IMG/VR virus record: IMGVR_UViG_3300042888_002988
Coordinates: 96,001-160,000 of that record
Direction: 5' to 3' (one strand)
DNA: 64,000 nucleotides
Source: a virus
Lineage: Duplodnaviria > Caudoviricetes
Part shown: positions 31,289 to 50,427 of the stretch, one piece after another
Position numbering within the stretch: the stretch's first letter is position 1
How the letters are laid out: each line of letters begins with the position of its first letter
Notes under the pieces: model-generated
The model's input: only the letters and a program-made list of their open reading frames with translations
The model's database searches: none
Told to the model about the DNA's origin: nothing
Made by a program: the position numbers and the translations under genes

Positions 31289-31804
31289 ATGGCAATCATC
31301 CTACAAGGTAACGCATTCGTATCCCTCGGCGGAGGTGGGGGAGGTGGCGGCGGCTCGGTCGCGCTCGCCAACTGCAAGGGTCACGTGCACACGTTCGATG
31401 GTCCGTCGAACGGCTTCTACGAAATAGATCCACCGATCCCGGACGCGCAGGACTCCAAGGCGTTGGTGCTGGGCGTTCCGCTTACGTTCACTGAGATCGT
31501 GCAGCCGACCACCACGCTGGACGACAAGCGCGTGCTGTATCTGTTCGGCACCGCTTGGAATGATCTGTCGGTCTCCGGCATCCTGCTGCTCGGAGAAAGT
31601 AAGACCCGCGGCGAGCAGCTGACGAAGCTGATGCAATGGTACAATCAGAACCGGGTCAGCGAGAAGCGTGGGCCGGTTCGGGTATCCCTGGGCACCACCG
31701 GGATTGACGCCTACGTGACCGGACTCCGCCTGGATCAAGCCAACCCACAGACCAACACCCAAATGTTCTCCATCATCATGGTGACAGCCGACGTCGAAGC
31801 ATGA
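31289..31804 (+). CDS. Tail tube initiator / baseplate tube-fold protein
   Basis: Follows the tape measure gene; EIVQPTTTLDDKRVLYLFGTAWNDLSVSGIL parallels the tube protein strand pattern. Confidence 0.6.
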   Translation: MAIILQGNAFVSLGGGGGGGGGSVALANCKGHVHTFDGPSNGFYEIDPPIPDAQDSKALVLGVPLTFTEIVQPTTTLDDKRVLYLFGTAWNDLSVSGILLLGESKTRGEQLTKLMQWYNQNRVSEKRGPVRVSLGTTGIDAYVTGLRLDQANPQTNTQMFSIIMVTADVEA

Positions 31805-34186: not shown

Positions 34187-34188
34187 CC

Positions 34189-37100
34189 ATGGACCAGGAC
34201 GAACAATTTCCAGAAGAACAGGACCGCCTCTACCGCGAGCGTGAGCGCCTGCGCGGCCAAGATCCAACGTGCGCTACTGGTGCTATCAATCTGCAGCCGG
34301 ACATTGCGCCCGTCATCGCGGTAGGTAAGTGTGACGAACCGACCGAGCCGCAGGTAGCCGTCTTCATCCCGCCCAATCCTCCGCCGCTCGAACCAGTCGA
34401 CCCGGACCTGCTGCCTCCGCCGATTTTGCTGTATAGCCGTGAGGCGTCGGCACAGTGCCCCGCTGAGCAGGCGGATTTAACGCAGCTACCAGGCAACCCT
34501 CCGGTGCCTGTCATCATCGCAGCCGGCGCCGAGGTGCAGGAAGTTTACCTGGATGGAATTCTCGATCCTGGCACCGGACAGCCAGTGATCCCGCAGTCCG
34601 AGTTGTTCCGCATCGCGGTCTACGGTGCGGAGATGCAGGCCTACGTCACGTCGAACCTGATCCCGGCGATCATCTCCGGTGCTTTCGTGACGTTCGAGGC
34701 AGGTTTCGCAACGCTTACCGGCCTGTCAGGTCCGCTGGTCACCGCGATCCGTGAGGCTTTGGTCACTGCGCAGGTGCTGGCGGATGACATTGCGCAAGCC
34801 GCGGCTGAGTCCAGCCTGCTTTGCGGATGGTACAACCGGGAGCTGTGGGTGGTGTGCGATCCGGATCCTAACGGTCCGGGTTACGAGATCAAATATGAGG
34901 AGCCGCCGCCACCGCCGCCCGATTGGGAGCGCCAACCAGCAGGCGAATACTCGTCCACGATCAGCCAGGCAGACGCCGACGCGCTCGCCGCTATCTACGC
35001 AGCCATTCGTTTGAACTGCCTGGTGCCGAACGATGAGCAGACTGCTACCTGCAGCAGCGAGGATATTCTGGACGAGACGACGCCGATTGAATGGCCGTCC
35101 GCGTGGTTGTTCCCAACGATCAATGGCACGACGAAAAATCCCGATCCGCATCCTCTGGAGCTGCAGAACATCGACTCGTGGGAGTTCGCAGAGTGGCAGA
35201 CGGCGGACACTGCGCTGAGCACCGTCCCACTCGACACTCTCAACGGGCAGGAGTTCCTGCAGGTGACGCAGGTCGGTATAGGTCTGCGCCGCACGTTGCG
35301 AACGACCGTAGTCGTTCTGGAGGCCACTCCGGCCGCCGCTGCGCGCACGAAAGACGAAGCCAACGCGATCGCCTACAACTTGGCCGTGTCGCAGCTGGAC
35401 TGCTTCTTCCCCAACCGCCCGCGCGTGATCTCGTGCATGACGGCGGATTACGGCAACCCTGAGGTAAATCTGCGGGCCGATGCTATGGGACGAGACGACG
35501 ACGTCGCCGGTAGACTCGCGATGTATGTGGAGATGCGCGGCGGCGATCCCGACGACTTCGGAGGACCGGCCTACACACGCTTCAACAGCGGCGTAAAGAA
35601 CTTCGCGGCGCCGAATGAACGAGCTGACGAACGTCTCGCGTTTGAAGTCCGCTTGTGGCCCGGGTTCTTTGCGGCCGACAGCGCCGCGGTGGTGGCGGAG
35701 CAGGCCTACCAATACAGCGCTGGTTACCTGCAGTGTGATTGGATATCCCCAATGCACACCTGCACGTGCATCACCGAATTCACCTACGACGTTTCACCGG
35801 CGGGCGGCCTACTGCACCAACAGGGCGAGCCTGAAGACGTCGCGGACTGGAGCGGCATTTACAGGATCGACCCAGCCGACCCGTCGCAGCTTTCAGTACT
35901 CGACCCCGAGACAGGCGAGCCGCTGAATGCCAAGTTGGATCGCTCACGCTCGGTCGACGAAAATGAGCTGCCTCGCGGGCTTATCTTCAGCAACACGTAT
36001 CCCAACGCAGCGCTCGGCTACGGAGGCGACTACGAGTGGCCTGATCTGCCGCAGATCTGCCAAAGCTCACTGCAGTGCCTGTTCGTTTCCTGCAAGATGG
36101 CTTGCTGCGAGCCACGCCCAGACGAACGTCCAAAGATCGTCAACGAAGCGCCGAACTTCGCTTCGACGAACGCTGCTTGGGCAGCCGGAAGACAGTCAAC
36201 CCAAGCGGACCACGCTTCCTTCATGGCGCGTTGGTGGGCCGCATTGTCGCTGCAGGAAATTGAAGCTTGCTCCCTGAGCGCCATCATCAAGTTTCTACCT
36301 AAGCAGTATGACGATTGCACACTGTATGACGGCGACGCTGCGACGGTTATCCTCCCGATCACCACTGTCGCCGACGGCGCGAAGCGCATCGTGCACCCAG
36401 GACCGAACAACGGCGACGGTCCTGGTATGCCGGCCCGCTTCAAGTTCGGTGGCCTGCTGAAATGGGGGCAGACCTGGGCGGAGCCATCAACGATCGGCAC
36501 CGGCGAGACGCCGGGCGATCCTGGCGGCTACACGCCAGGTGGCACCGATCCCGCGAGCCTGGACAACGTCGGCACTGTGAAGGGCTGCCATAACCAGGAT
36601 CCGAACGGACTAGGTTCCTTGGCATACCCGGATCCCTGGGGATTCTATCACTGCGCTGAGGGTGTCGCCGAGGGCTACACGCCCTTCGGGCTGGAGGATC
36701 AAGCTCGTAGTCTGGCAGTCGGCCGCCTAGACTGCACGCACATCGCCTGGCCTCGTCACCTAGTGCTGTGTCCTCAGCACAACCAGCGTCCTTGGGGTCC
36801 GGTATGGAATCTCAATGTGATGATCGAGGGGGCCACCACCGGTGACGCTGACATGACTTCCGAAATGATGCTGCTGCCGCTGCTGGAGTGCCGCGACATG
36901 CACAACTACATGCTGACCTACTTCAACAATCAGCTCACGCTGCCGGGCCCTTCGATGGCGGTGGTTGGTAAGGACGAGTGCCTACCGCTGGGCCTCAGCC
37001 AGGCGGTGCTTTACGAAACCTGCGGGGCGGAGACGGAAGCTGACACCGAGGACATCACTCAGTCGGGCAGCGGACACGTGATCGTTTACTCGGGTTGCTG

Positions 37101-37947
37101 CCCTGACGAACTGGTCAAGAAGTTGTTTTTGGCCATCGTGGAGGAACCGATTTCCTACAACGAGATCCGCGATGCCAAGCAGAAGGGTCAGCTGGGACTA
37201 CCATCCGGCGTAGCCGCCGCTGAGACTTTCCGCCAAACCGGTGACGATGCCAACGAGGTGTATTACATCGGTTCCTTCCTGGTGACTGACGTGGGCGGCG
37301 GACAATACGAAAGGATCACCGTGCAGGCGCACTCCGGCCCCGTGATTCTGTCCGACACGTGTTGCGATAGCTCAAGCAGTTCCGGCAGCGGCAGCAGCAG
37401 CAGCAGCAGCAGCAGCGGTTCCAGCGGTGACAGCTCCTCGGGCGGTAGCAGCGGAGGCAGCGGCAGCGGTTCCGGCGGTTCCGGCGGTTCCGGCGGTTCC
37501 GGCGGTTCCGGCGGCGGATCGGACAAGTCCACAGCGATCGTGCCGGCCTCGTGGCAGAAGCACGGCTTCACCGCCCTGTTCACGGTGGAGAGTCCTGAAG
37601 TCGTATTCCGCGACACGATCCGGGATATTCCGATCAAGAGCCGCCGCACACGCCTACGTCTCGATCGCCGCTTCATAGAAGTCTGCGAGCCGCATACCCT
37701 GCGCGTAGCCAGCGTTTCCGGCGACAAGGTGGTCAACATCGGCGCCGAAATCGACGGCGATTATGTCGTGCTTACCTTACCGCGATTCTACTTCCAGAAC
37801 CTACGCTCGCCGCTGGTGGTGCAGATCGACATCGTCGGTATCCGCAAGGGCTTCTTAGCTACACGCTTCCCGGCGCGTGACTTGGAGCAGTTCGAAGCAA
37901 ACGAAGTCACAATCAACTCCGCTTACCCAGGCAAAGACCTTTCCTGA
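34189..37947 (+). CDS. Large Cys-rich virion fibre-like protein with DUF5977-like repeats
   Basis: PAGEYSSTISQADADALA...LNC matches the DUF5977-type motif, with about six related modules; long Ser/Gly linker; C-terminal ESPEVVFRD...LDRRFIEV domain of a type seen at phage fibre C-termini. Confidence 0.6.
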   Translation: MDQDEQFPEEQDRLYRERERLRGQDPTCATGAINLQPDIAPVIAVGKCDEPTEPQVAVFIPPNPPPLEPVDPDLLPPPILLYSREASAQCPAEQADLTQLPGNPPVPVIIAAGAEVQEVYLDGILDPGTGQPVIPQSELFRIAVYGAEMQAYVTSNLIPAIISGAFVTFEAGFATLTGLSGPLVTAIREALVTAQVLADDIAQAAAESSLLCGWYNRELWVVCDPDPNGPGYEIKYEEPPPPPPDWERQPAGEYSSTISQADADALAAIYAAIRLNCLVPNDEQTATCSSEDILDETTPIEWPSAWLFPTINGTTKNPDPHPLELQNIDSWEFAEWQTADTALSTVPLDTLNGQEFLQVTQVGIGLRRTLRTTVVVLEATPAAAARTKDEANAIAYNLAVSQLDCFFPNRPRVISCMTADYGNPEVNLRADAMGRDDDVAGRLAMYVEMRGGDPDDFGGPAYTRFNSGVKNFAAPNERADERLAFEVRLWPGFFAADSAAVVAEQAYQYSAGYLQCDWISPMHTCTCITEFTYDVSPAGGLLHQQGEPEDVADWSGIYRIDPADPSQLSVLDPETGEPLNAKLDRSRSVDENELPRGLIFSNTYPNAALGYGGDYEWPDLPQICQSSLQCLFVSCKMACCEPRPDERPKIVNEAPNFASTNAAWAAGRQSTQADHASFMARWWAALSLQEIEACSLSAIIKFLPKQYDDCTLYDGDAATVILPITTVADGAKRIVHPGPNNGDGPGMPARFKFGGLLKWGQTWAEPSTIGTGETPGDPGGYTPGGTDPASLDNVGTVKGCHNQDPNGLGSLAYPDPWGFYHCAEGVAEGYTPFGLEDQARSLAVGRLDCTHIAWPRHLVLCPQHNQRPWGPVWNLNVMIEGATTGDADMTSEMMLLPLLECRDMHNYMLTYFNNQLTLPGPSMAVVGKDECLPLGLSQAVLYETCGAETEADTEDITQSGSGHVIVYSGCCPDELVKKLFLAIVEEPISYNEIRDAKQKGQLGLPSGVAAAETFRQTGDDANEVYYIGSFLVTDVGGGQYERITVQAHSGPVILSDTCCDSSSSSGSGSSSSSSSSGSSGDSSSGGSSGGSGSGSGGSGGSGGSGGSGGGSDKSTAIVPASWQKHGFTALFTVESPEVVFRDTIRDIPIKSRRTRLRLDRRFIEVCEPHTLRVASVSGDKVVNIGAEIDGDYVVLTLPRFYFQNLRSPLVVQIDIVGIRKGFLATRFPARDLEQFEANEVTINSAYPGKDLS

Positions 37948-37952
37948 CTACT

Positions 37953-40613
37953 ATGCCCCCGCCAGTTTCATACGGCAGCGCCAAGTCGTCCGGCTCTTCT
38001 GGATCGCCCAGCGGTTCGTCGATAGGTTCCAGCGCTGGTAGCTCTGGTAGCTCTGGTAGTTCTGGTAGTTCTGGTAGCTCGGGGTCCGGTGGGTCTGACG
38101 GTGGCGGCAGCGATGGTTCTGAAGGGCGTGGATGCTGTCCCGATCTCGGCCCGCTGATCACCATGCTGTATAAGGTCAACGGGCGGACGGATAAAGACTG
38201 CTTTGAGACGTCCCCCGAGCCGCAGTCCATAACGGTAGTAATGAACGGCACGGTCGGTCTACCGCCGTGTCCCGAATGCGAGAACTACTACATCGTGCGA
38301 TTCGGCATCGCCGGGCAATCACGGACGCAGAACCTGGGTATCGGCGGCACGTTCTTTGCGCACGAATTTACTATCGATCCTGCGTTCCCGAACTCGGACT
38401 ACCCGACGTTTGCCTGTATAGAGGTGCAGGGGTCCCCTCCGCCAGCTTTGAATTGCTACGAGGACATCGACTCGAATTGCTGTGTGCACGCGGTGTTCAG
38501 GTCGCCGGATTATTGCGAATTCAGCTCGTCCAGTGATTCATCGAGCGACAGCGGCAGCGGCGCGTGCTGCGTCCAGGTCGAATTTATATCGCCCGTCGAC
38601 GGGCACAAAGTTTGCGAGGAGATGTTCTACGGCGGAGGCGTCTATGGTTACGAAGATATTCAGCTGACGTGGAACCCGAACATTAAAAGATGGATCCTCA
38701 CCATCGGCGGGCCTGGTAGCACGGCTGTGATATTTACGGGCAACGAGTGCCCCCACGGTAATATCGAATACGAGGGGTTGTCGCTCAAGTTTGGTCCGTG
38801 TAACGGTTGCGGATCAAGCAGCAGCAGCGGTAGTTCTGACAGCGGCAGCAGTGCGGGTTCCGGCAGCTCCGCTGGTTCCAACTCAAGTAGCGGCAGCACT
38901 TCTGGTTCCGGCAGCTCCGCTGGTTCCAACTCAAGTAGCGGCAGCACTTCTGGTTCCGGCAGCGTCGGTTGTGACTGTATCCAGCTGCGGTTCATTCCGC
39001 AGGGAGACACAGAAGAGATTTGCATTGAGCTTACCGGGGCGCCGGGGGGCTTTGGTATCGACGACATTTTGTTCGTTATAGGTGAGGCTGGTGTATGGAC
39101 ACTGGCAATCGCTGGCGACGTTTGCACACCGCCCCCTGGCGGTGGTGGTAGTGGCGACTGTCCGGCCTTCGGGGTGTGGACCGACATAGACTTGGGCGAC
39201 ATTCTGGTTGGTCCTTGTGACGGGTGCGGTAGCAGCCCGTCCGACTCTAGCAGCTCCTCTGGCTCCGGCAGTGCTCCCGACTCAACCTCTGGCAGCGGCA
39301 GCTCCGGTAGCTCTGGTGTATCGAGCAGCGGCAGCGGATCTGGTGGCTCTGGTAGTGGGTCTGGCGGATCGGGCAGCGGCAGCTCTGGTGTATCGAGCAG
39401 CGGCAGCGGATCTGGTGGCTCTGGTAGTGGGTCTGGCGGATCGGGCAGCGGCAGCACTTCAGCGTGCTGCGTGCAGATCGAATTTATCTCGCCTGTAGAT
39501 GATCAACGCGTCTGCGCGGAGATGGCTTACGCCGATGGCGTTTACACGTACGAGACCATCACTGTTGAGCACAACGGCACTGCTTGGATCGGCATCTATC
39601 CGGAAGGGGCGAGCTTGATAACCTATGACCCAGATTGCCCCTACGGCAGTTTCTCCATGGGCTTCGCGGACGCGGAGCAAACCGTCGTTACGCTGGGTCC
39701 CTGCGTCGGTTGCGGTAGCAGCTCATCTGGCTCCGACAGCGGCAGCTCATCTGACAGCGGCAGTAACCCTGGCTCCGGCAGTGGCAGCTCATCTGACAGT
39801 GGCAGTAACCCTGGCTCCGGCAGTGGCAGCTCATCTGACAGTGGCAGTAACCCTGGCTCCGACAGCGGCAGTAACCCTGGCTCCGGCAGTGGCAGCTCAT
39901 CTGACAGTGGCAGTAACCCTGGCTCCGGCAGCGGCAGTAACCCTGGCTCCGGCAGCGGCAGTACCCCTGGCTCCGACAGCGGCAGTAACCCTGGCTCCGA
40001 CAGCGGCAGTAACCCTGGCTCCGGCAGTAACCCTGGCTCCGGCAGTAACCCTGGCTCCGACAGTGGCAGTAACCCTGGCTCCGACAGTGGCAGTAACCCT
40101 GGCTCCGACAGTGGCAGTAACCCTGGCTCCGACAGTGGCAGTAACCCTGGCTCCGACAGTAACCCTGGCTCCGACAGTAACCCTGGCTCCGGCAGCAACC
40201 CTGGCAGTAACCCTGGCTCCGGCAGCAACTTTGGCTCCGGCAGTAACCCTGACAGCGGCAGTAACCCTGACAGCGGCAGTAACCCTGGCAGTGGCAGTAA
40301 CCCTGGCAGCAACCCTGGCTCCGGCGGCAGCAACCCTGGCAGCAACCCTGGCTCCGGCGGCAGCAACCCTGGCAGTGGCAGTAACCCTGGCAGCAACCCT
40401 GGCTCCGGCGGCAGCAACCCTGGCAGCAACCCTGGCTCCGGCGGCAGCAACCCTGGCAGTGGCAGTAACCCTGGCAGCAACCCTGGCTCCGGCGGCAGCA
40501 ACCCTGGCAGCAACCCTGGCTCCGGCGGCAGCAACCCTGGCAGCAACCCTGGCTCCGGCGGCAGCAACCCTGGCTCCGGCGGCAGCAACCCTGGCTCCGG
40601 CTCCTACCCATGA
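37953..40613 (+). CDS. Cys-rich modular protein with Ser/Gly linkers and a long (G)SNPG(S) tail
   Basis: Three related six-Cys modules (CCVQxEFISPVD...VCxEM...CPxG...GPCxGC) separated by Ser/Gly runs; about 300-aa SNPG repeat C-terminus. Confidence 0.7.
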   Translation: MPPPVSYGSAKSSGSSGSPSGSSIGSSAGSSGSSGSSGSSGSSGSGGSDGGGSDGSEGRGCCPDLGPLITMLYKVNGRTDKDCFETSPEPQSITVVMNGTVGLPPCPECENYYIVRFGIAGQSRTQNLGIGGTFFAHEFTIDPAFPNSDYPTFACIEVQGSPPPALNCYEDIDSNCCVHAVFRSPDYCEFSSSSDSSSDSGSGACCVQVEFISPVDGHKVCEEMFYGGGVYGYEDIQLTWNPNIKRWILTIGGPGSTAVIFTGNECPHGNIEYEGLSLKFGPCNGCGSSSSSGSSDSGSSAGSGSSAGSNSSSGSTSGSGSSAGSNSSSGSTSGSGSVGCDCIQLRFIPQGDTEEICIELTGAPGGFGIDDILFVIGEAGVWTLAIAGDVCTPPPGGGGSGDCPAFGVWTDIDLGDILVGPCDGCGSSPSDSSSSSGSGSAPDSTSGSGSSGSSGVSSSGSGSGGSGSGSGGSGSGSSGVSSSGSGSGGSGSGSGGSGSGSTSACCVQIEFISPVDDQRVCAEMAYADGVYTYETITVEHNGTAWIGIYPEGASLITYDPDCPYGSFSMGFADAEQTVVTLGPCVGCGSSSSGSDSGSSSDSGSNPGSGSGSSSDSGSNPGSGSGSSSDSGSNPGSDSGSNPGSGSGSSSDSGSNPGSGSGSNPGSGSGSTPGSDSGSNPGSDSGSNPGSGSNPGSGSNPGSDSGSNPGSDSGSNPGSDSGSNPGSDSGSNPGSDSNPGSDSNPGSGSNPGSNPGSGSNFGSGSNPDSGSNPDSGSNPGSGSNPGSNPGSGGSNPGSNPGSGGSNPGSGSNPGSNPGSGGSNPGSNPGSGGSNPGSGSNPGSNPGSGGSNPGSNPGSGGSNPGSNPGSGGSNPGSGGSNPGSGSYP
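39714..40604 (+). repeat. Degenerate coding tandem repeat array built on AACCCTGG(CTCC) units
   Basis: Dozens of copies of ggcag(t/c)aaccctggctcc-like units with variable spacers, all multiples of 3 nt. Confidence 0.95.
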
Positions 40614-40628
40614 GCGTAAGTTTTAGAC

Positions 40629-40657
40629 TTGCGCCGCGACCGGCCACTCAGCATATT
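40629..40657 (+). promoter_or_regulatory. sigma70-like promoter TTGCGC-17-CATATT for the glycan-modification cassette
   Basis: Correct spacing in the intergenic gap upstream of 40674. Confidence 0.5.
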
Positions 40658-40673
40658 CACTACGCAAACCACT

Positions 40674-41429
40674 ATGAGCACCAATAGCAAACCGCACCCT
40701 AAAACACCCAAGAAACAAGCAGCCAGCACACCAGCGGGGGAGATCAACCAAGAGCCCCAGCTACTGACTGACTGGTTCGACAAGGTTTTCATTATCAACT
40801 GCGCGCACCGCCCTGACAGGCTGCAGGCAGTGAAAGAAGAAATTGTGGGTAAAAAACTCGGGGACTGGGACAAGATCACTGTTTCCCCGGCCATTATCGG
40901 TGACTACACCACGCACCCTGCGGGATGGGGAGGGGGCCGCGGCGCATGGGGATGCCTACAGTCGCACAGGCGAATCATGGAGGATCTCATGCACATGCGC
41001 GATGAGCGCGGTGACATGAACTGGGAGCGCGCTTTGATACTGGAGGACGACGTATTTTTCTTGGACAACGCCTTGCGTGACCTGGGTGACTTCATGCGAA
41101 TTGTGCCAGACGGCTGGGGACAAATCTATCTCGGCGGGCAGCATCGTGGCACGCAGCCGGTGCCGGTAATTCCGGGGGTGTTGCAGGGTCACTCGATCAA
41201 TCGCACGCACGCCTATGCCGTCAGTCGTCAGTTTATCCAGAAGATCTACTGCCACATCTCCTACATGATGGATTACAACGGCAACAACAAGCACATCGAT
41301 CACCAGTTGGAGCTGGCGCATCAACGCAAGGACTGGCTAGTATATTGTCCGCCCAAGTGGATCTGCGGGCAACGCGCGGGCGCGAGCAACATCAGCGGCA
41401 AAACTCTCCCTGACCAAATTTGGCAATGA
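40674..41429 (+). CDS. Glycosyltransferase family 25-like
   Basis: FDKVFIINCAHRPDR, GAWGCLQSHRRI, ALILEDDV, QIYLGG and RTHAYAVS motifs. Confidence 0.85.
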   Translation: MSTNSKPHPKTPKKQAASTPAGEINQEPQLLTDWFDKVFIINCAHRPDRLQAVKEEIVGKKLGDWDKITVSPAIIGDYTTHPAGWGGGRGAWGCLQSHRRIMEDLMHMRDERGDMNWERALILEDDVFFLDNALRDLGDFMRIVPDGWGQIYLGGQHRGTQPVPVIPGVLQGHSINRTHAYAVSRQFIQKIYCHISYMMDYNGNNKHIDHQLELAHQRKDWLVYCPPKWICGQRAGASNISGKTLPDQIWQ

Positions 41430-41605
41430 AAACGTCCGTAATACCAGGTCTTATGTTGATGGCGCGCACCGACGCGTCGCCCGATTATCTGCACGCGTTC
41501 CTCAGTCACCATGGTGTCAAGTTCGAGTCTATCAGTAAAACGTCATGGATCAGGCAGTCTGATGTGCCAAAACTCGAATCTGTATCAAATGGAAAATCTG
41601 CATGA
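41426..41605 (+). CDS. Small hypothetical protein
   Basis: 59-aa ORF with ATGA overlap on the GT25 stop, filling the gap to the GT2 gene. Confidence 0.4.
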   Translation: MKTSVIPGLMLMARTDASPDYLHAFLSHHGVKFESISKTSWIRQSDVPKLESVSNGKSA

Positions 41606-42299
41606 CAGGGTCACTGTGGTGATCAAGACGTTCATCCGTTATCAGACTTTGCGGCGCACCATACGCCGCATTAAGTCCGTGTGGCCGGGTCTTCACATAA
41701 TCGTTGTAGACGACACGCCGTTGAAATTACGCAAGCCTATCGCGATACCTGGCGTGACGTTCGTCGTGACCGAGCCGGACATCGGGCTGTCTGCCGGACG
41801 TAACCGCGGGTTTGCGGAGGCATCGACCGAGTATGTGCTATACACTGACGATGATGCCTTTCCGCATGCGAGCTCATCGCTGGCCGATCTGGAGCACCTA
41901 GTGAAGCAACTGGACGCGGGCCTAGCGGATCTGATTGGGTGGCGAGGATGGACCATCAACGAGAATGGCGGCAGGCTGTCGTTTCGAGGAGTCAGGCCCG
42001 GGGATCTGACGGTGTGTCAAGTCACGGAAAATGCTTACATCGCCAGGCGCGCTGTACTGGTGCAAAATCCGCACCCTGAGGAGATCAAGATTAACGGGGA
42101 GCACTTCTCGTTCTTCTACTTGCTCTACAAGGCCAAGGTAAAAGTGCGTTGCTCCAAGCTTCTGCGCTTCATCAACACCAAGGCCAGAAATCCTGAGTAT
42201 ACAGCTTATCGCAACCGGACGTATCGTAAGGCTGCCAAGCGAGCGACCGGTTACCAAGGCGCGCTATGGCAAGCTCCATCAGCAGACAGTGGATCATGA
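41589..42299 (+). CDS. Glycosyltransferase family 2 (GT-A fold)
   Basis: VTVVIKTFIR...IIVVDD...GLSAGRNRG...YVLYTDDD (DxD motif). Confidence 0.88.
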   Translation: MENLHDRVTVVIKTFIRYQTLRRTIRRIKSVWPGLHIIVVDDTPLKLRKPIAIPGVTFVVTEPDIGLSAGRNRGFAEASTEYVLYTDDDAFPHASSSLADLEHLVKQLDAGLADLIGWRGWTINENGGRLSFRGVRPGDLTVCQVTENAYIARRAVLVQNPHPEEIKINGEHFSFFYLLYKAKVKVRCSKLLRFINTKARNPEYTAYRNRTYRKAAKRATGYQGALWQAPSADSGS

Positions 42300-42889
42300 T
42301 CGTTACCGAGTTGAACCTAGTGTTCCTACACCCCAGTAAGACGGGAGGAACTTCCGTAGAGAAGGCCCTGCTCTCGGCCCTCCTGCGCGGCCCGCTCAGC
42401 GATCTGGAGCGCAAGCATTACGCCATATGGGACAAAGGCAGCTCGCAGCACTGGCCTTTGGCGCACCTGCTGCGCCGTCGCCCGGAGGTTGCTAACTACA
42501 GGCAGGTGATGACGGTTCGCCATCCATACCACAGGTTCGTCAGTGAGTTCAATTATCAAGTGGCTGGTAATCGCTACAAGGTATCCCCATTTGAGCAATT
42601 CTACCGAAGCAATGATGTCAACGGGGCCATCCTCAGCGGCGCCCTGTGGCAGTGCAAGTATCCATGGCACGGCGCCAAGCAATGCGATTATCTGGGGGCA
42701 ACGACCGAGATCATGCGGCTCGAGACATTGTCCCAAGACTGGGCTCGATGCTTTCCGGAATTCGAAGCGCTGCCGCACGAAATGAAGTCTCGGTCGGTCG
42801 TCACTGTCGCCGACTTGGACGACGAAGCGAAGGCGGAGCTAGTGAGGCGCTACGAGGAGGACTTTAGAGTGTTTAATTATGAGCCATGA
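42296..42889 (+). CDS. Carbohydrate sulfotransferase (Sulfotransfer_2-like)
   Basis: 5'-PSB motif FLHPSKTGGTS and 3'-PB motif VRHPYHRFVSEF. Confidence 0.85.
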   Translation: MIVTELNLVFLHPSKTGGTSVEKALLSALLRGPLSDLERKHYAIWDKGSSQHWPLAHLLRRRPEVANYRQVMTVRHPYHRFVSEFNYQVAGNRYKVSPFEQFYRSNDVNGAILSGALWQCKYPWHGAKQCDYLGATTEIMRLETLSQDWARCFPEFEALPHEMKSRSVVTVADLDDEAKAELVRRYEEDFRVFNYEP

Positions 42890-44138
42890 TCTAACTCTGC
42901 AGGCCACGCCGTGGCATATAATCAACCCGACGCACATACCAGTAGCGGCGACGGCCAACCTTGGAGACGCCATACAGAGCGCAGCTGCGCGGAAACTGTG
43001 GCCGACCACGAAGCTCGTACATCGCGATAAGCCGCGCTCGTGGCCCAAAGATGCGATAGTACCACTTGTTGGGTGGTATGGACATCATCGACAACCATTT
43101 CCAGCGTCGGCGAACGTCGTCATAGTAGGCTTTCACTGCAACCCAAAGTCGGCGCGCTGCCTGAAAAATCGCGCGGAATGGTTTAAGTCGCAGGTGCGCA
43201 ATCAGGGCTTCCCAGCGTTCTGTCGTGATATTTACACGCGGGACCTGCTGCGATCGGTCGGTGTTGATGCGGAGTTCGGTGGCTGCGTCACGCTTACGCT
43301 ACCTCCCCATACGGGCCCACGATCGGGGAGTATTGTCATCGATGTAGCCGGAGCCGATCCGCGAGAGTTGAGCACGCACGAAATCGTAGCGCTTAGCAAT
43401 ATCCGGGCAGAGCAGCGCCTGATAGAAGCGAACAAACAGATAGCGCAGCTGGGGAGCGCGTTGACTGTGCGGACCTCCCGCCTCCACGCGTGGTTGCCTA
43501 GCCTGGCCGCGGGAACAAACGCATCGTTGATATTTCCGCCGGCCGCCGGTGACGTCAGGTTCACCGGCTACAACATCAACGCCAAGACCCGGCAGGAGCT
43601 GTTTTCTCAGACGTCGCGCGCAGAGCCGCATCGTTACCGCCTCATCGAGGGGTGGTTTGACTTCGCAGATGTATACCGGGATATCGCCGATCGATTGCCG
43701 ACGGGCGGCACGTTTGTGGAGCTGGGAGTTTACGCCGGAAAGTCGCTTAGCTTCATGGTTGATTATCTGGCGTATCTAGGCAAGGAAGCGCGTGTGCTGG
43801 GTGTCGACCTTTTTGATCGGGTAGCCAAGCCCAAAGTAGAAAGCGCGCTGGGGGACGGCGCAGAGCTGCTGCAAGCTGATTCGGCGGCGGCAGCTGCAGC
43901 ATTTGCCGATGGTTCTGTGGACGCCGTGTTCGTGGACGCAAATCACTCGGCGGACGCCGTGGCAGCGGACATCCGGGCGTGGCTGCCTAAACTGTCCGCG
44001 ACGGGCGTCATTGCCGGCCATGACCTAAGTCCAGGTCACCCGGGTGTGCGGCGTGGGCTGTTGCGCGCTGGTATCCCGTATGAGCCAGTTTCCGCCGCCT
44101 GCTGGATACATGATCGCCGTCAATCTGAAGTTGACTAG
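42879..44138 (+). CDS. Polysaccharide pyruvyltransferase-like domain fused to class I SAM methyltransferase
   Basis: N-half: NLGDAIQ, CRDIYTRDLL, GGCVTLTL, TSRLHAWLPSLA. C-half: FVELGVYAGKS, VFVDANHS, GVIAGHD. Confidence 0.82.
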   Translation: MSHDLTLQATPWHIINPTHIPVAATANLGDAIQSAAARKLWPTTKLVHRDKPRSWPKDAIVPLVGWYGHHRQPFPASANVVIVGFHCNPKSARCLKNRAEWFKSQVRNQGFPAFCRDIYTRDLLRSVGVDAEFGGCVTLTLPPHTGPRSGSIVIDVAGADPRELSTHEIVALSNIRAEQRLIEANKQIAQLGSALTVRTSRLHAWLPSLAAGTNASLIFPPAAGDVRFTGYNINAKTRQELFSQTSRAEPHRYRLIEGWFDFADVYRDIADRLPTGGTFVELGVYAGKSLSFMVDYLAYLGKEARVLGVDLFDRVAKPKVESALGDGAELLQADSAAAAAAFADGSVDAVFVDANHSADAVAADIRAWLPKLSATGVIAGHDLSPGHPGVRRGLLRAGIPYEPVSAACWIHDRRQSEVD

Positions 44139-44165
44139 GTGGCCCCTCAGGATTAGCCATAGCTC

Positions 44166-44549
44166 ATGCCTCTTTCGCTGGTAGCGCTCATCGCCCTCAT
44201 CGTCCTGCTGGTCGCCGGCTGGACTGCCGCCTGGTTGTATTGGTTCTTCGAGGGTGATCTGCGTCACGCTCTGTTCGCCTTCGTCTTCCCAGAATCTTGG
44301 CGCGCCGATCGTCACAAGGAGGATCTGCTCACACTCAACCGGGAGGATTTTGAGATGTTCCTGGCTGCCGAATCCGCCGCGCCACCATTCGTCCGCGGCG
44401 TGCTGGGATGCCCTGGTTGCTTTTCCGCCTACGTGTCGGCCTCAGGCACTGCTCTGGGTGTCGCGAGTTTTTTCTTCCCCATCTTCCTGGTGCCGTTGAT
44501 ATGGGCATCGGCGGCATGGGCTGGCCATCGCCTTCTCCACAACACCTGA
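44166..44549 (+). CDS. Membrane protein with CxxC (DUF1360-like)
   Basis: N-terminal TM helix; VLGCPGCFSAYV followed by hydrophobic helices. Confidence 0.65.
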   Translation: MPLSLVALIALIVLLVAGWTAAWLYWFFEGDLRHALFAFVFPESWRADRHKEDLLTLNREDFEMFLAAESAAPPFVRGVLGCPGCFSAYVSASGTALGVASFFFPIFLVPLIWASAAWAGHRLLHNT

Positions 44550-44554
44550 GACCC

Positions 44555-44926
44555 ATGAATCGCAAACTCCGAATCTTCCGTATGATGGGTGACAAACGCG
44601 TCCCCTACACCATCGAGCTGGACGAACAGCTCACCGTCATCGCCGAATACGCCGACACCTCCGCGCTGGATCATGTGGCGATGGGGCGGAAGCCCGAGGC
44701 GGAAGCGTCGTCACCCGAGCGCAGGAAAGCCATGCTGGTCGCGCGCTGGACGACGCCGGCCGTGGACGTCAATCCGATCCCCGGCAGCGAGGAGCTCCGC
44801 CAGGAATTCTTCGAGGCGAAGCGGAAGTTGGACGAGCAGCACGGCGTCAAAGGTTGCCCCAGCTGCAAGCTCGGCCCGCTCATTCGTCAATATCGCGAGA
44901 AGCTGGAAAAGGCCAACCTGCTATGA
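44555..44926 (+). CDS. Small protein with C-terminal helical CxxC motif
   Basis: IPGSEELRQEFFEAK...GCPSCKLGPLIRQYREKL; ATG 44555 follows the upstream stop. Confidence 0.65.
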   Translation: MNRKLRIFRMMGDKRVPYTIELDEQLTVIAEYADTSALDHVAMGRKPEAEASSPERRKAMLVARWTTPAVDVNPIPGSEELRQEFFEAKRKLDEQHGVKGCPSCKLGPLIRQYREKLEKANLL

Positions 44927-45102
44927 GCATCCCGGGTATGTCGCAGTATCCGGACCTTGAGCAGAAATACCGCCATCAACTGGCCGACGCGCGCTCCCAG
45001 CGCTCCTCTTGCTCCTCCTGCGCAGTCAACAAGGTGCACGAGAAATTCAGGCGCTTATTAAGTGAAAGGCTCAAGCGTGACAAAGTGCTGAAGAAGCGGT
45101 AG
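44923..45102 (+). CDS. Small basic CxxC protein, paralogous to the C-half of the upstream gene
   Basis: IPGMSQYPDLEQKY...SCSSCAVNKVHEKFRRLL; ATGA overlap. Confidence 0.6.
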   Translation: MSIPGMSQYPDLEQKYRHQLADARSQRSSCSSCAVNKVHEKFRRLLSERLKRDKVLKKR

Positions 45103-45105
45103 AGT
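45077..45105 (+). promoter_or_regulatory. sigma70-like promoter GTGACA-17-TAGAGT
   Basis: GTG start at 45112 lies 6 nt after the -10 box. Confidence 0.55.
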
Positions 45106-45111
45106 AGCCGC

Positions 45112-45840
45112 GTGAACCAAGATCTCCCGCCGGTAATTCCGCCAGAAACACCCGAGTCGATCTACGACGCGTGGCGTGTGGATCCCACCCCTGACAACCT
45201 GGGGCGGGTCGTGAAGTCCTTGGACAACACGATCAATTATAAGCTGTCCACCATGGGGATCGGGGACAACCCTCAGATGCGTCACCAGGCCCGCCTGTTT
45301 GCGGCGGACGCGGTCAAGAAGTTCGACCCAGCCTCCGGCACCAATCTCCGCACATGGACGCAGAGCCAGCTCCAGTCGCTGCAGCGCTACCGCCGGGAGT
45401 CGCAGGGGCCGGTGAAGATTCCGGACCGCGCCTCACTGGACGCCTGGACGCTGGAGAAGACCTCGCGCGAGCTGGAGGATGAGCTCGGCTTCGAACCCGA
45501 CGTGAAACAGTTAGCCGACCGTTCTGGGCTTTCGGTCAAACGGATCGCCGCCGTGCGCAAGATCACCCGACCGATGGCCGCCGCCGCGCAGATGTATGAC
45601 GACGGTCAAACGCCGACTGATTTCCTGGGGGAAGCGCTGGAATACATCTACGACACTTCCGACCGCACCGACCGCAAGATCATCGAACTCACGACTGGCT
45701 ACGGCGGCTCACCGGTGATGGCGAAGAATGAGATTGCTCTCAAGCTGGGCATATCGCCGTCGCAGGTCACCCGGCGCGCCGACAGAATTGGCTTCAAGGT
45801 GCAGGAGATGGATCAACAGATCGAGGGGGTGCACGCATGA
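45112..45840 (+). CDS. Phage sigma70-family (FliA-like) sigma factor
   Basis: Region 2-like AVKKFDPASGTNLRTW; region 3-like LEDELGFEPDVKQLADRSGLSVKRI; region 4 HTH KNEIALKLGISPSQVTR. Confidence 0.82.
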   Translation: MNQDLPPVIPPETPESIYDAWRVDPTPDNLGRVVKSLDNTINYKLSTMGIGDNPQMRHQARLFAADAVKKFDPASGTNLRTWTQSQLQSLQRYRRESQGPVKIPDRASLDAWTLEKTSRELEDELGFEPDVKQLADRSGLSVKRIAAVRKITRPMAAAAQMYDDGQTPTDFLGEALEYIYDTSDRTDRKIIELTTGYGGSPVMAKNEIALKLGISPSQVTRRADRIGFKVQEMDQQIEGVHA

Positions 45841-46136
45841 GAGGTCACGCGATCGCCAAGGAGGAAGACCGCACGCGTGCTTTCCAGGAGCACCGGCAGG
45901 AGCTGCAGGGGCGTCTACCCAAGGGGCCGTTCGAGTTCGCGGCAGATCTGGATTTCAAGGACATCAAGCCCGATGATAAGGACCCGCCTGTGGTGCGGCG
46001 TTTCAAGCTGGCTGTGGCGCGCGATGCGCGATACGCTGTGGCTTCAGGCCCCTACCTGCAGATCTTCGGTCTCAGCCAGGGCCTGCGGTCTATCTACGAC
46101 GGTGGTGCTCAAATCCAAGACGGCAGTGCAACATGA
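45837..46136 (+). CDS. Hypothetical protein
   Basis: 99-aa ORF with ATGA overlaps at both ends. Confidence 0.55.
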   Translation: MRGHAIAKEEDRTRAFQEHRQELQGRLPKGPFEFAADLDFKDIKPDDKDPPVVRRFKLAVARDARYAVASGPYLQIFGLSQGLRSIYDGGAQIQDGSAT

Positions 46137-46534
46137 AAGCTATAAAAGTCATATTCGGGGGGGCCAACAAGGTGGCTATCGACTGGAACGGTTCAGTTGA
46201 CGGATTGACTGCGGTCGCGCAACGCGCCGGCATCTCGCTGATGACGCAGGAAGGCTCGGACAAGTTCCTGCCAGCGCGCGGCACCAACGTGTCGCGGGTG
46301 CTGTTCAGCTACGGCGCGTTCGATGTCATGGGAATGCAGCACGTGCTCAATTTCGGGGCGTTGAAAGCTCGCAGCGACATGCAAGCCTTCGACGAACCTT
46401 CCCGCGCGCCGGAGGACAGGGTCATCGCGATCCGCACGACGCTGATCACCGTGAAGAACAACGCCGCCCAGGTGGGCGTCACCGTATCCAACCAAGCCGG
46501 GCAGACGACCCGGGCCATCACTGAAATCGAATGA
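46133..46534 (+). CDS. Baseplate wedge / sheath initiator (gp25-like)
   Basis: FLPARGTNV motif, size and position directly before the baseplate J-like gene. Confidence 0.7.
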   Translation: MKAIKVIFGGANKVAIDWNGSVDGLTAVAQRAGISLMTQEGSDKFLPARGTNVSRVLFSYGAFDVMGMQHVLNFGALKARSDMQAFDEPSRAPEDRVIAIRTTLITVKNNAAQVGVTVSNQAGQTTRAITEIE

Positions 46535-49833: not shown

Positions 49834-50427
49834 ATGTTCAAACTGATCAGAGACCAGACATCCATCGGCGATGTGCTGAGCAACCGCGGACTGTGGCCGG
49901 TGAGCTACTCTGCCTACTACACGGAGAACAATCAACCGGCCGCCATCTTCGTGATGCATTCATCACCGAGCCCGGATGTATTTGCTGACAGCTTTTCTTG
50001 CGTGGTCAGCGCCATCCAAATGACGGACTTGCCGGCGACGGCTCCGGAATTAGGGAGTCCGTTCTACAGGGTGTCTAGTTTCACCAAGCTTTTCCAGGAC
50101 GCCGTTTCCGCCGTCGCTTTCGATGAGAAGATCAAGGCCCTCACGCAGGACCTGGTAAATAATCTATACGCCGCGGGACAGCTGAGCGAAGTGCAGAACA
50201 CCGTATTCGAGCCTCTGGGCGGTGGTGGCACCGACGTCCCAGCCCCCAGCAGCGGATCTGACCCAGGCAGCGTCGGCAGCGAATCTGACTCTGGCAGCGG
50301 ATCTGACCCAGGCAGCGTCGGCAGCGAATCTGACTCTGGCAGTGGCTCCGACCCAGGCAGCGTCGGCAGCGAATCTGACTCTGGCAGTGGCTCCGACTCA
50401 GGCAGCTTCGGCAGCACGTCAGGCTGA
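49834..50427 (+). CDS. Virion protein with Ser/Gly/Asp repeat tail; paralog of the next gene
   Basis: MFKLIRDQ...AAIFVM...DVFADS core followed by SGSDPGSVGSESDSG repeats. Confidence 0.7.
   Translation: MFKLIRDQTSIGDVLSNRGLWPVSYSAYYTENNQPAAIFVMHSSPSPDVFADSFSCVVSAIQMTDLPATAPELGSPFYRVSSFTKLFQDAVSAVAFDEKIKALTQDLVNNLYAAGQLSEVQNTVFEPLGGGGTDVPAPSSGSDPGSVGSESDSGSGSDPGSVGSESDSGSGSDPGSVGSESDSGSGSDSGSFGSTSG
50251..50415 (+). repeat. 45-nt coding tandem repeat (three copies plus a partial)
   Basis: agcggatctgacccaggcagcgtcggcagcgaatctgactctggc-type units start at 50251, 50296, 50341 and 50386. Confidence 0.92.

What the first reader, a model, noticed from the sequence alone, without database searches (positions are those of the whole stretch)
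37372..44138. Candidate phage 'proteoglycan' system: Ser-Gly acceptor fibres next to GT25, GT2, sulfotransferase and pyruvyl/methyl-transferase
Seen: three virion-region proteins (34189, 37953 and the distant 49834) carry long Ser-Gly tracts, two of them interspersed with Asp/Glu (SSDSG, SGSDPGSVGSESD). Directly downstream of the first two is a translationally coupled cassette of two glycosyltransferases, a PAPS-dependent sulfotransferase and a pyruvyltransferase-methyltransferase fusion. Known: Ser-Gly repeats near acidic residues are glycosaminoglycan attachment sites in animals; some mycobacteriophages glycosylate virions; mimivirus fibril glycans are pyruvylated and methylated. Inference: this phage may build a sulfated, pyruvylated, O-methylated glycan on its own fibres, for shielding, adhesion, or as a polysaccharide-mimicking lure for a glycan-foraging host. 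I am not aware of a sulfated virion glycan described for a phage. No sugar-nucleotide or PAPS synthesis genes are in the window, so donors would be host-derived or encoded elsewhere.
Basis: partly seen in the sequence, partly recalled or inferred. Interest (0 to 1): 0.9.

Follow-up and report, generated by a model that had tools for sequence, protein, structure and literature searches.

The report
Phage fibre glycosylation-sulfation gene module
A 200-kb lake phage places genes for sugar-, sulfate-, pyruvate- and methyl-adding enzymes directly after tail proteins with long serine-glycine tracts, and the same pairing recurs in dozens of other uncultured phage contigs, so these phages probably coat their own fibres with decorated sugars, which nobody has shown by experiment.

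Summary
Only three real genes in the 200,158-bp phage genome carry long Ser-Gly tracts (34189, 37953, 49834). Two of them lie directly upstream of a soluble enzyme cassette: GT25-like, GT2, Sulfotransfer_2, and a pyruvyltransferase-like/Methyltransf_24 fusion.

- The C-terminal domain of the 1252-aa protein defines an unannotated family of 736 clusters. It is always C-terminal and nearly always preceded by a Ser-rich tract.
- In 38 of 49 loci a GT25-like gene follows it. Seven of the ten loci without a detected GT25-like gene that I scanned carry another glycan enzyme instead.
- Distant GT25 genes (below 32% identity) never have a Ser-rich neighbour (0/27, against 20/30 for the close clade).
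- The sulfotransferase is a sporadic add-on (5/49). A close relative keeps the GT25-like gene but lacks the GT2, sulfotransferase and pyruvyl/methyl genes.

Best reading: cytoplasmic O-glycosylation of the phage's own Ser-rich tail proteins, here probably sulfated. This is inferred, not shown. "Proteoglycan" is too strong, because the cassette has no xylosyltransferase or GAG polymerase.

MAG binning hints at Planctomycetota or Verrucomicrobiota as hosts. Earlier unchecked notes of this scan describe similar cassettes on other phage DNA. I found no publication describing one.

The parts
34189..37947 (+). P0001, a 1252-aa Cys-rich tail-module protein. It has an N-terminal body of DUF5977-like modules, a Ser-Gly tract (residues 1054-1118, about nt 37348-37542) and a conserved C-terminal beta-sandwich domain (residues 1108-1252, about nt 37510-37944).
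37953..40613 (+). P0002, an 886-aa 'beads on a string' protein. It has an N-terminal GSAKSSGS motif, then small Cys-bounded domains separated by Ser-Gly(-Asp) tracts, then a tail of about 290 aa of SGSNPG repeats built from recent tandem DNA repeats. It is the main candidate glycan acceptor.
40629..41429 (+). P0003, a GT25-like glycosyltransferase (GT-A fold, invariant EDD). It is the conserved core enzyme of the module and the candidate initiating O-glycosyltransferase.
41426..41605 (+). Remnant ORF and deletion scar. Its first 26 codons match the N-terminus of the 672-aa N-domain+MT24+GT2 protein of the close relative L011. About 410 codons are missing here.
41511..42299 (+). P0004, a GT2-family glycosyltransferase. 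It is the GT2-only derivative of the L011 fusion, and its real start may be the ATG at 41589. Candidate chain-extending enzyme.
42266..42889 (+). P0005, a minimal (about 200 aa) PAPS-dependent sulfotransferase of the Sulfotransfer_2 family. Its start is probably the ATG at 42296. LHPSKTGGTS and RHPYxRxxSE are invariant.
42879..44138 (+). P0006, a fusion protein. Its N-terminal half is like polysaccharide pyruvyl transferases (about residues 1-250, nt 42879-43628). Its C-terminal half is a Methyltransf_24 domain (residues 280-382, nt 43716-44024).
44166..44549 (+). Small protein with two membrane-spanning segments, directly after the cassette. It is 78% identical in the close relatives L101/L123. 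Its role is unknown and it may not belong to the system.
49834..50427 (+). P0007, a 197-aa protein of the baseplate region. Its acidic Ser-Gly tail comes from 3.7 copies of a 45-nt repeat at 95% identity, a lineage-specific addition. The homologue in L012 has 130 aa and no tail. It is a possible third acceptor.

Best explanation
The region is a phage-encoded, cytoplasmic protein O-glycosylation module inside the tail/baseplate operon.

**Conserved core: three genes in fixed order**
1. A tail-associated protein with a variable N-terminal body, a Ser-rich low-complexity tract and a conserved C-terminal beta-sandwich domain that begins GSDKSTAIVP.
2. A second Ser-rich protein that carries the 11-residue motif GS[AS]KS.SSVSE once.
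3. A soluble GT25-like glycosyltransferase.

**Proposed mechanism**
- The GT25-like enzyme puts the first sugar on serines of the tracts, using host nucleotide sugars.
- A variable downstream island then extends and decorates the glycan. In this phage the island is a GT2 enzyme, a PAPS-dependent sulfotransferase and a pyruvyltransferase-like/SAM-methyltransferase fusion.
- The product would be an anionic, mucin-like brush on fibres that are built into the virion.

**Shown:** the genes, domains and motifs; the conserved gene order; the statistical link between the Ser-rich genes and the glycan enzymes.

**Inferred:** that the Ser tracts are the acceptors; that the proteins are in the virion; the order of the reactions; that sulfate, pyruvate and methyl groups end up on that glycan.
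For: **Location**
- The cassette lies between a VgrG-like spike protein (DUF2345) and a baseplate-wedge-like protein plus a collagen-like protein.

**The C-terminal domain family**
- It has 736 clusters (50% identity) at E<=1e-3. The domain is C-terminal in all 150 listed hits.
- S+G makes up at least 40% of the 40 preceding residues in 82% of those 150.
- Its model (pLDDT 90.6) matches C-terminal domains of predicted tail-spike, phage structural and Peptidase-S74-annotated proteins in AFDB (E 5e-7 to 2e-4, TM by query 0.46-0.70). It matches solved tailspike and pyocin-fibre tips only weakly (Z 5-6.5).

**Gene neighbourhood**
- 38 of 49 loci with this domain and at least 3 kb of downstream sequence have a GT25-like gene on the same strand, mostly 0.1-1.8 kb away.
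- Of ten loci in which my ORF-based screen had found no GT25-like gene, seven encode GT9, GT2, GT7C+pyruvyltransferase or Stealth+MT24 enzymes next door. The other three scanned proteins matched nothing, a phosphoribosyltransferase domain, or an NMT1/THI5 domain. A later check found a GT25-like gene after all in two of those three loci, L101 and L144.
- A Pfam census of 119 downstream proteins is dominated by GT8, GT2, GT32 and GT9 glycosyltransferases, methyltransferases and pyruvyltransferase.

**Reverse test**
- A Ser-rich-tract ORF lies within 3.5 kb upstream of the GT25-like gene in 20/30 loci at 35% identity or more. It does so in 0/27 loci below 32% identity. The background is 21/4421 ORFs. 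Fisher p = 2.6e-8, uncorrected for phylogeny.

**Motif and closest solved relatives**
- The 11-mer motif occurs in the neighbouring Ser-rich protein in 53 loci.
- The closest solved relatives of the GT25-like family are a protein-acting enzyme (procollagen galactosyltransferase 1) and mimivirus R655.

**Enzymes**
- All four enzymes lack membrane-spanning segments.
- The sulfotransferase has invariant PAPS-binding motifs. Nearly all of the top 50 Foldseek PDB matches of its model are sulfotransferases, although the E-values are weak.
Against: - No chemical or proteomic evidence exists. Virion membership rests on gene position and weak fold matches.
- Ser-rich tracts can be plain flexible linkers, and regions next to tail-fibre genes are known hot spots for accessory genes.
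- The co-occurrence counts are not phylogenetically independent. Several loci come from related marine phages of about 55-60 kb or from the same contigs.
- P0003 and the pyruvyltransferase-like half of P0006 score below the Pfam cut-offs.
- P0004 is a deletion derivative and might be decaying.
- The genome has no APS kinase or sugar-nucleotide genes, so sulfation depends on the host's PAPS pool.
- A distant ST+GT25 pair occurs with no Ser-rich protein within 10 kb (L013).
Confidence: 0.55

Rival explanations
1. The enzymes remodel host envelope glycans (LPS, exopolysaccharide or S-layer glycoprotein) during infection. The purpose would be to mask receptors, block superinfection or help release. 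The Ser-rich tracts are ordinary flexible linkers of receptor-binding proteins that happen to lie next to an accessory-gene hot spot.
For: - Pfam describes family 25 as an LPS-biosynthesis family.
- From general knowledge, phage glycosyltransferases often serve seroconversion.
- The tailoring island is swapped between close relatives like a typical accessory island.
- A small membrane protein follows the cassette.
- One sulfotransferase homologue (58% identity) sits alone in a bacterial-looking context (L008).
Against: - The specific GT25-like clade is tied to Ser-rich genes across very different phage contigs, and distant GT25 genes are not.
- The genes sit in the late structural operon on the same strand, with very short gaps or overlaps to the fibre genes.
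- No cassette protein matched a flippase, polymerase or lipid-carrier-priming transferase family, and none has a membrane-spanning segment.
- The nearest solved relatives of the GT25-like family act on protein or are viral.
Confidence: 0.2
2. The cassette glycosylates other virion proteins, such as the capsid, tail tube or the collagen-like fibre, as in mycobacteriophages or mimivirus. It does not act on the adjacent Ser-rich proteins.
For: - Mycobacteriophage glycans sit on the C-termini of capsid and tail-tube subunits (Freeman et al. 2023, as cited in PMC12619734).
- GT25 includes collagen galactosyltransferase, and a collagen-like protein is encoded at 51384-52226.
Against: - Collagen-like ORFs occur in only 4 of about 140 loci with the module, whereas Ser-rich neighbours are the rule.
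- No lysyl hydroxylase domain was seen in the cassette.
Confidence: 0.1
3. The enzymes hypermodify phage DNA with glycans.
For: Virus-encoded glycosyltransferases that hypermodify DNA are known (Pyle et al. 2024, as cited in PMC12619734).
Against: - The genome has no thymidylate-synthase-family hydroxymethylase.
- The cassette lies in the tail operon, not the replication module.
- Sulfotransferase and pyruvyltransferase have no known role in DNA modification (general knowledge).
Confidence: 0.03

Closest known systems
Mycobacteriophage virion O-glycosylation (Che8/Corndog/Myrna type; Freeman et al. 2023 Cell Host Microbe, known here only through its citation in PMC12619734)
   Same: In both, phage-encoded soluble glycosyltransferases in or near the structural genes are proposed or shown to decorate the phage's own virion proteins in the cytoplasm.
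   Different: - Here the candidate acceptors are dedicated Ser-rich tail proteins with a conserved C-terminal domain and an 11-mer motif, not the C-termini of capsid or tail tube subunits.
- The core enzyme is GT25-like.
- The decorations include a sulfotransferase and a pyruvyltransferase.
- The hosts are probably not Actinobacteria.
- Nothing has been shown by experiment.
Serine-rich-repeat adhesins of Gram-positive bacteria (GspB, Fap1, SraP with GtfA/GtfB) and SdgA/SdgB glycosylation of Ser-Asp repeats in staphylococci
   Same: Both have long Ser-rich low-complexity tracts encoded next to cytoplasmic glycosyltransferases, with stepwise extension by further variable transferases (general knowledge).
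   Different: - There is no GT4 GtfA/B pair and no accessory Sec system.
- The proteins are phage tail components, not cell-wall adhesins.
- The initiating enzyme belongs to a different family.
Mimivirus fibril glycosylation (including R655, PDB 9crz) with pyruvylated and methylated glycans
   Same: - Both are virus-encoded glycan machinery for the virus's own surface fibres.
- The GT25-like profile matches R655 at E 6e-8.
- Pyruvyl and methyl tailoring enzymes are present in both.
   Different: - Mimivirus is a giant virus of eukaryotes that makes its own nucleotide sugars. This phage encodes none.
- No sulfation is reported for mimivirus glycans, to my knowledge.
Metazoan proteoglycans (Ser-Gly plus acidic residues, xylosyltransferase, Golgi carbohydrate sulfotransferases of Sulfotransfer_2)
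   Same: Both have Ser-Gly tracts with interspersed Asp and a sulfotransferase of the same Pfam family.
   Different: - The cassette has no xylosyltransferase, linker-tetrasaccharide enzymes or GAG polymerase.
- The chemistry would be cytoplasmic.
- The resemblance is one of composition, not of pathway.
GT25 family: procollagen galactosyltransferase 1 (COLGALT1) and LPS beta-1,4-galactosyltransferases
   Same: A GT-A catalytic domain with the EDD motif, and a profile match to COLGALT1 residues about 311-481 at E 7e-9.
   Different: - P0003 scores below the Pfam cut-off (21.5 against 24 bits).
- The clade is specifically linked to Ser-rich proteins, not to collagen or LPS loci.

Membership tests
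Glycosyltransferase family 25 (Pfam PF01755) | Score above the curated Pfam cut-off (24 bits) | tested here: inconclusive
   P0003 scores 21.5 bits. The homologues in L012 (41% identical) and L013 (26% identical) score 29.7 and 32.3 bits.
Glycosyltransferase family 25 (Pfam PF01755) | Conserved GT-A motifs including the acidic DxD-type motif, and homology to a solved GT25 catalytic domain | tested here: met
   R61, D63, R64, G108, C109, S112, H113, E139, D140 and D141 are invariant in five homologues. The profile matches procollagen galactosyltransferase 1 at E 7e-9.
Sulfotransfer_2 (PF03567), PAPS-dependent carbohydrate sulfotransferases | Score above the cut-off, and presence of the 5'-phosphosulfate and 3'-phosphate binding motifs | tested here: met
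   44.1 bits against a cut-off of 22. LHPSKTGGTS and R85-P87-Y88-x-R90-x-x-S93-E94 are invariant in 13 homologues.
Sulfotransfer_2 (PF03567), PAPS-dependent carbohydrate sulfotransferases | Sulfotransferase fold | tested here: inconclusive
   The model has pLDDT 83.7. Nearly all of the top 50 Foldseek PDB rows are sulfotransferases, but E is 0.01-0.2 and TM 0.4-0.5.
Sulfotransfer_2 (PF03567), PAPS-dependent carbohydrate sulfotransferases | Transfer of sulfate from PAPS to a sugar hydroxyl | not testable with these tools
   This needs an enzyme assay.
Polysaccharide pyruvyl transferase (PF04230) | Score above the curated cut-off (25.3 bits) | tested here: inconclusive
   P0006 scores 17.8 bits. 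P0178, a stand-alone relative of its N-terminal half (42% identical), scores 26.7 bits, and the more distant P0183 (26% identical) scores 37.2 bits.
Methyltransf_24 (PF13578) | Score above the cut-off | tested here: met
   71.9 bits against 26.3, at residues 280-382 of P0006.
Glycosyltransferase family 2 (PF00535) | Score above the cut-off | tested here: met
   49.1 bits against 23.3. The gene is a truncated derivative of a longer fusion.
Metazoan-type proteoglycan / GAG biosynthesis | Xylosyltransferase, linkage-region transferases and a GAG co-polymerase | tested here: not met
   The Pfam scan of all cassette proteins shows only GT25-like, GT2, Sulfotransfer_2, pyruvyltransferase-like and MT24 domains. 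The rest of the genome was not searched for these families.
Metazoan-type proteoglycan / GAG biosynthesis | Ser-Gly acceptor sites near acidic residues | tested here: met
   The SSDSG, SGSDSGS and SGSDPGSVGSESD tracts.
Serine-rich-repeat glycoprotein systems (GtfA/GtfB, aSec) | A GT4 GtfA/GtfB pair and accessory SecA2/SecY2 | tested here: not met
   No such domains were found in the cassette or among the 25 most frequent families in 119 neighbouring proteins of related loci.
Phage virion glycosylation (mycobacteriophage type) | Phage-encoded glycosyltransferases within or beside the virion structural genes | tested here: met
   The gene order lies between spike-like and baseplate-wedge-like genes.
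Phage virion glycosylation (mycobacteriophage type) | Glycans demonstrated on virion proteins | not testable with these tools
   This needs glycoproteomics of virions.

The most novel reading that the evidence does not exclude
Uncultured phages that probably infect Planctomycetota and Verrucomicrobiota carry a dedicated 'fibre mucin' system: Ser-rich tail proteins, a GT25-like initiator and a fast-evolving tailoring island. In this lake phage the system would build a sulfated, pyruvylated, methylated O-glycan brush. The brush would imitate the sulfated polysaccharides these bacteria forage for, so the host's own glycan-capture machinery would act as the phage's first receptor. The conserved GS-x-KS motif would be the docking peptide that recruits the glycosylation enzymes.
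Probability: 0.12. Interest if true: 0.95.

Novelty: new variant of a known kind. Interest (0 to 1): 0.78.

Why it matters
**What is known.** To my knowledge, virion glycosylation by phage-encoded enzymes has been shown only for mycobacteriophages. I found no report of a sulfated glycan on any phage.

**What this adds.** The evidence defines a conserved three-gene core that occurs in dozens of phage contigs, and the fibre-domain family alone has 736 clusters. None of the 50,697 GenBank phage records matched that domain. The core consists of:
- a Ser-rich fibre protein with a new C-terminal domain;
- a second Ser-rich protein that carries an 11-mer motif;
- a GT25-like enzyme.

A variable tailoring island follows it.

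**Consequences if the reading is right.**
- Mucin-like, chemically diverse glycan coats would be a common and overlooked layer of phage-host recognition in lakes and oceans.
- The system would supply a compact, soluble toolkit for O-glycosylating and sulfating Ser-rich tags in bacteria.

**Testability.** The claim can be tested directly by co-expressing two or three small genes and measuring the intact mass of the product.

Tried and rejected
- **Close relatives of single proteins.** Single-protein scans of IMG/VR with the sulfotransferase gave nothing. P0006 gave only two distant methyltransferase loci.
- **GenBank phages.** blastn of the region found no match. tblastn of the C-terminal domain found no match among the 50,697 records. 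The GT25-like protein had one 24%-identical hit in an unannotated uncultured phage.
- **Family libraries.** PHROGs has no family for the C-terminal domain, the second Ser-rich proteins or the unknown genes of L005. Pfam has none for the domain even at E<=1 across 70 members. NCBIfam adds nothing.
- **Solved structures for the C-terminal domain.** A PDB profile search found no hit. Foldseek against the PDB found nothing significant; the top rows were Gram-positive pilin/adhesin domains at E about 0.07.
- **Collagen as the conserved GT25 acceptor: rejected.** Collagen-like ORFs occur in only 4 of about 140 loci.
- **DNA glycosylation: unlikely.** The genome has no ThyA-family gene.
- **Phage-encoded PAPS supply: absent.** There is no APS kinase. 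Two PAPS-reductase-family genes lie elsewhere in the genome and were not followed up.
- **Promoter and terminator scan of 33500-46000:** no more sites than expected by chance.
- **Expression:** no RNA holder was listed among the public runs.
- **Repeat lengths:** the lengths of the Ser-Gly arrays could not be checked, because the contigs break there.
- **Literature:** searches found no paper on sulfated phage glycans, on Ser-rich phage fibre glycosylation or on this module. The Freeman 2023 paper is not held.

Full report
**Setting.** The window is bases 96001-160000 of a 200,158-bp IMG/VR virus record that CheckV rates as complete. GC is about 61%. Nearly all genes are on the + strand. The record encodes a fragment of a multisubunit RNA polymerase.

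The finding lies in the tail/baseplate part of the genome. A DUF2345 (VgrG-like) protein is encoded at 24363-26990. A weak baseplate-wedge match lies at 46531-48282. A collagen-repeat protein lies at 51384-52226.

**Observation.** The three Ser-Gly proteins exist as described. A scan of the whole genome finds tracts of 25 or more residues in only these three real genes.

- P0002 consists of small Cys-bounded domains strung on Ser-Gly(-Asp) tracts. It ends in about 290 residues of SGSNPG-type repeats encoded by recent tandem DNA repeats.
- The acidic tail of P0007 is 3.7 copies of a 45-nt unit at 95% identity. Its homologue in L012 lacks the tail.

The enzyme genes follow directly. GT2, Sulfotransfer_2 and Methyltransf_24 pass the Pfam cut-offs. 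GT25 and PS_pyruv_trans do not pass for the single proteins, but two further results rescue them:

- A five-sequence profile of the GT25-like family matches procollagen galactosyltransferase 1 (E 7e-9) and mimivirus R655 (E 6e-8) among solved structures. The EDD motif is invariant.
- Two stand-alone relatives of the N-terminal half of P0006 pass the pyruvyltransferase cut-off: P0178 (42% identical) and the more distant P0183 (26% identical).

The sulfotransferase belongs to a small family of 13 proteins found among 5.8 billion sequences. Both PAPS-binding motifs are invariant in it. Its model retrieves almost only sulfotransferases, though weakly. None of the four enzymes has a membrane-spanning segment.

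Gene junctions are tight except between GT25 and GT2. There, a 60-codon ORF keeps the first 26 residues of a 672-aa N-domain+MT24+GT2 protein of the close relative L011. P0004 corresponds only to residues 440-669 of that protein, so about 410 codons have been lost.

The non-repetitive sequence is reproduced exactly in lake metagenomes of four studies. The repeat arrays are not bridged.

**The co-occurrence test.** Sulfotransferase homologues led to two kinds of locus:

- L011, a close relative with the same gene order.
- L005-L007, which come from an unrelated phage of about 52 kb with DNA polymerase A, a DUF5906 primase and lysis genes. There a 371-aa protein with a GGSTDSDS tract and the same C-terminal domain as P0001 is followed by a 263-aa SDSGS-tract protein, a GT25-like gene, two unknown genes and the sulfotransferase.

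L012 (a 125-kb contig, 49% GC) is a distant syntenic relative. It carries an SG-rich protein, a GT25 gene, two FkbM methyltransferases and the sulfotransferase.

*Test 1: from the GT25-like gene.* With a GT25-like profile I fetched 80 IMG/VR loci. A Ser-rich-tract ORF lies within 3.5 kb upstream on the same strand as follows:

| Identity of the GT25-like gene to P0003 | Loci with a Ser-rich ORF upstream |
|---|---|
| 55% or more | 8 of 9 |
| 35-55% | 12 of 21 |
| 32-35% | 2 of 13 |
| below 32% | 0 of 27 |
| Background (all other ORFs) | 21 of 4421 |

Fisher p = 2.6e-8 for 20/30 against 0/27, not corrected for relatedness. Two loci that a stricter Ser-Gly screen had missed carry SEE- or EPS-type Ser-acid tracts instead.

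*Test 2: from the C-terminal domain of P0001.*

- It matches 736 representative clusters at E<=1e-3 and is C-terminal in all 150 listed hits.
- In those 150, the preceding 40 residues are Ser-rich low complexity in nearly all.
- Of 49 loci with the domain and at least 3 kb of downstream sequence, 38 have a GT25-like gene on the same strand, usually within 0.1-1.8 kb.
- I scanned ten loci in which my ORF-based screen had found no GT25-like gene. Seven have GT9, GT2, GT7C+pyruvyltransferase or Stealth+MT24 enzymes next door. A later check found a GT25-like gene after all in two of the other three, L101 and L144.
- A Pfam census of 119 downstream proteins is dominated by GT8, GT2, GT32, GT9, Mannosyl_trans3, several methyltransferase families and PS_pyruv_trans.
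- The sulfotransferase occurs in only 5 of the 49 loci.
- L101/L123, close relatives with 50-75% protein identity and the same flanking genes, keep the GT25-like gene but lack the GT2, sulfotransferase and pyruvyl/methyl genes.

The core is therefore fibre protein, second Ser-rich protein and GT25-like enzyme. Everything downstream is a rapidly exchanged tailoring island.

**New details**

- *A conserved motif.* The second Ser-rich protein carries one copy of an 11-mer, GS[AS]KS[SFGY]SSVSE, in 53 loci. It sits at the extreme N-terminus, the extreme C-terminus or between modules, always next to a Ser tract. The window has a degenerate form, GSAKSSGSSGS. The motif resembles the first strand of the C-terminal domain (GSDKSTAIVP, Lys invariant). 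Its role is unresolved. Possibilities are a docking peptide for the enzymes, a donated strand or a cleavage site.
- *The fold of the C-terminal domain.* It folds with high confidence (pLDDT 90.6) into a beta-sandwich with a terminal helix. It has no significant Foldseek match in the PDB. It resembles C-terminal domains of tailspikes and pyocin fibres weakly (Z 5-6.5). In AFDB clusters it clearly matches C-terminal domains of predicted tail-spike, phage structural and Peptidase-S74-annotated proteins (E 5e-7 to 2e-4). This supports a tail-fibre role but does not prove it.
- *No existing annotation.* The domain is absent from Pfam, from PHROGs and from 50,697 GenBank phage records. Atlas clusters like it are viral and unnamed.

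**Host and habitat.** The same domain occurs on contigs binned into MAGs:

- ten of Planctomycetota (Pirellula, Pirellulales, Planctomycetaceae, Phycisphaera, Thermoguttaceae and unclassified);
- two of Verrucomicrobiota;
- two of Acidobacteriota.

In one of these contigs (L144, the Phycisphaera MAG) the module sits at the end of a 110-kb contig and is followed by an NMT1/THI5-family gene. This is a hint at the host range of the module, not proof for this phage. The phage itself recurs in lake and freshwater metagenomes of at least six studies.

**Mechanism.** The most economical reading is cytoplasmic O-glycosylation of the Ser tracts before or during tail assembly. The GT25-like enzyme would initiate, and the island enzymes would extend and decorate. 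Host UDP-sugars, PAPS, PEP and SAM would be the donors, because the genome has no APS kinase, nucleotidyltransferase or epimerase.

Function is open. The turnover of tailoring enzymes between close relatives suggests that the glycan's structure is under diversifying pressure. That fits a recognition or shielding role better than a purely mechanical one.

Rival readings:

- *Remodelling of the host envelope* is the main rival.
- *Glycosylation of other virion proteins* is possible. Collagen as the conserved acceptor is rejected.
- *DNA glycosylation* is unlikely.

**Comparison and novelty.** The nearest demonstrated system is mycobacteriophage virion glycosylation, which I know here only through its citation in PMC12619734. 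By architecture the module is closest to the serine-rich-repeat adhesin systems of Gram-positive bacteria. By enzyme kinship it is closest to mimivirus fibril glycosylation. The 'proteoglycan' label is not met at the pathway level.

Literature searches found no description of this module or of a sulfated phage glycan.

Within this scan, earlier unchecked AI notes describe similar glycosylation-sulfation cassettes next to poly-Ser or mucin-like tail proteins on several other phage genomes. My results agree with them. They add the C-terminal domain family, the motif, the identification of the GT25-like clade as the conserved core, and the swap of the tailoring island between close relatives.

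Noticed in passing
window 41426-41605: This 60-codon ORF overlaps the GT25 stop codon (ATGA). Its first 26 residues match the N-terminus of the 672-aa N-domain+MT24+GT2 protein of L011. It marks a deletion of about 410 codons that left P0004 as a GT2-only gene in another frame.
   Followed up: yes
53 related loci, e.g. L095:10415-10933, L107:5351-6088, L101:10426-11604; window 37971-38003: The 11-residue motif GS[AS]KS[SFGY]SSVSE occurs once per protein in the Ser-rich protein downstream of the fibre gene. It lies at the extreme N- or C-terminus or between modules. It resembles the first strand of the conserved C-terminal domain (GSDKSTAIVP). Its function is unknown.
   Followed up: partly
window 45112-45840: A 242-aa protein with Sigma-70 region 3 and winged-helix domains lies about 1 kb after the cassette. 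It is conserved in the same position in L101 (74% identity), L012/L139 and L136. It may be a phage late sigma factor inside the tail module.
   Followed up: no
window 51384-52226: A 280-aa protein with collagen triple-helix repeats (82 bits), probably a fibre. Collagen-like ORFs are rare in the related loci.
   Followed up: partly
window 31289-31804: A 171-aa protein that begins with a run of eleven glycines, encoded between large baseplate-region genes. It is 72% identical in L101.
   Followed up: no
window 44166-44549: A 127-aa protein with two membrane-spanning segments directly after the cassette. It is 78% identical in L101/L123.
   Followed up: partly
L013:9989-11121: An AT-rich (32% GC) phage contig has a distant Sulfotransfer_2 gene (26% identity) overlapping a GT25 gene, with no Ser-rich protein within 10 kb. 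So a sulfotransferase-GT25 pair can exist without this acceptor type.
   Followed up: partly
L008:1554-2135: A sulfotransferase 58% identical to P0005 stands alone on a bacterial-looking contig, next to TMP-TENI, HTH/HipA and ThuA genes.
   Followed up: no
G000:C1:16265-16540 and 183154-183756 (outside the window): Two PAPS-reductase-family genes lie in the same phage genome. No APS kinase is present, and any link to the sulfotransferase is unknown.
   Followed up: no
L117:10414-13002 and L131:10411-13095: In these phage contigs of 63% GC the second protein is an 862-894-aa Ser/Pro-rich, mucin-like protein that starts with the motif. A GT9-like enzyme and a methyltransferase follow it instead of a GT25-like enzyme.
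   Followed up: partly
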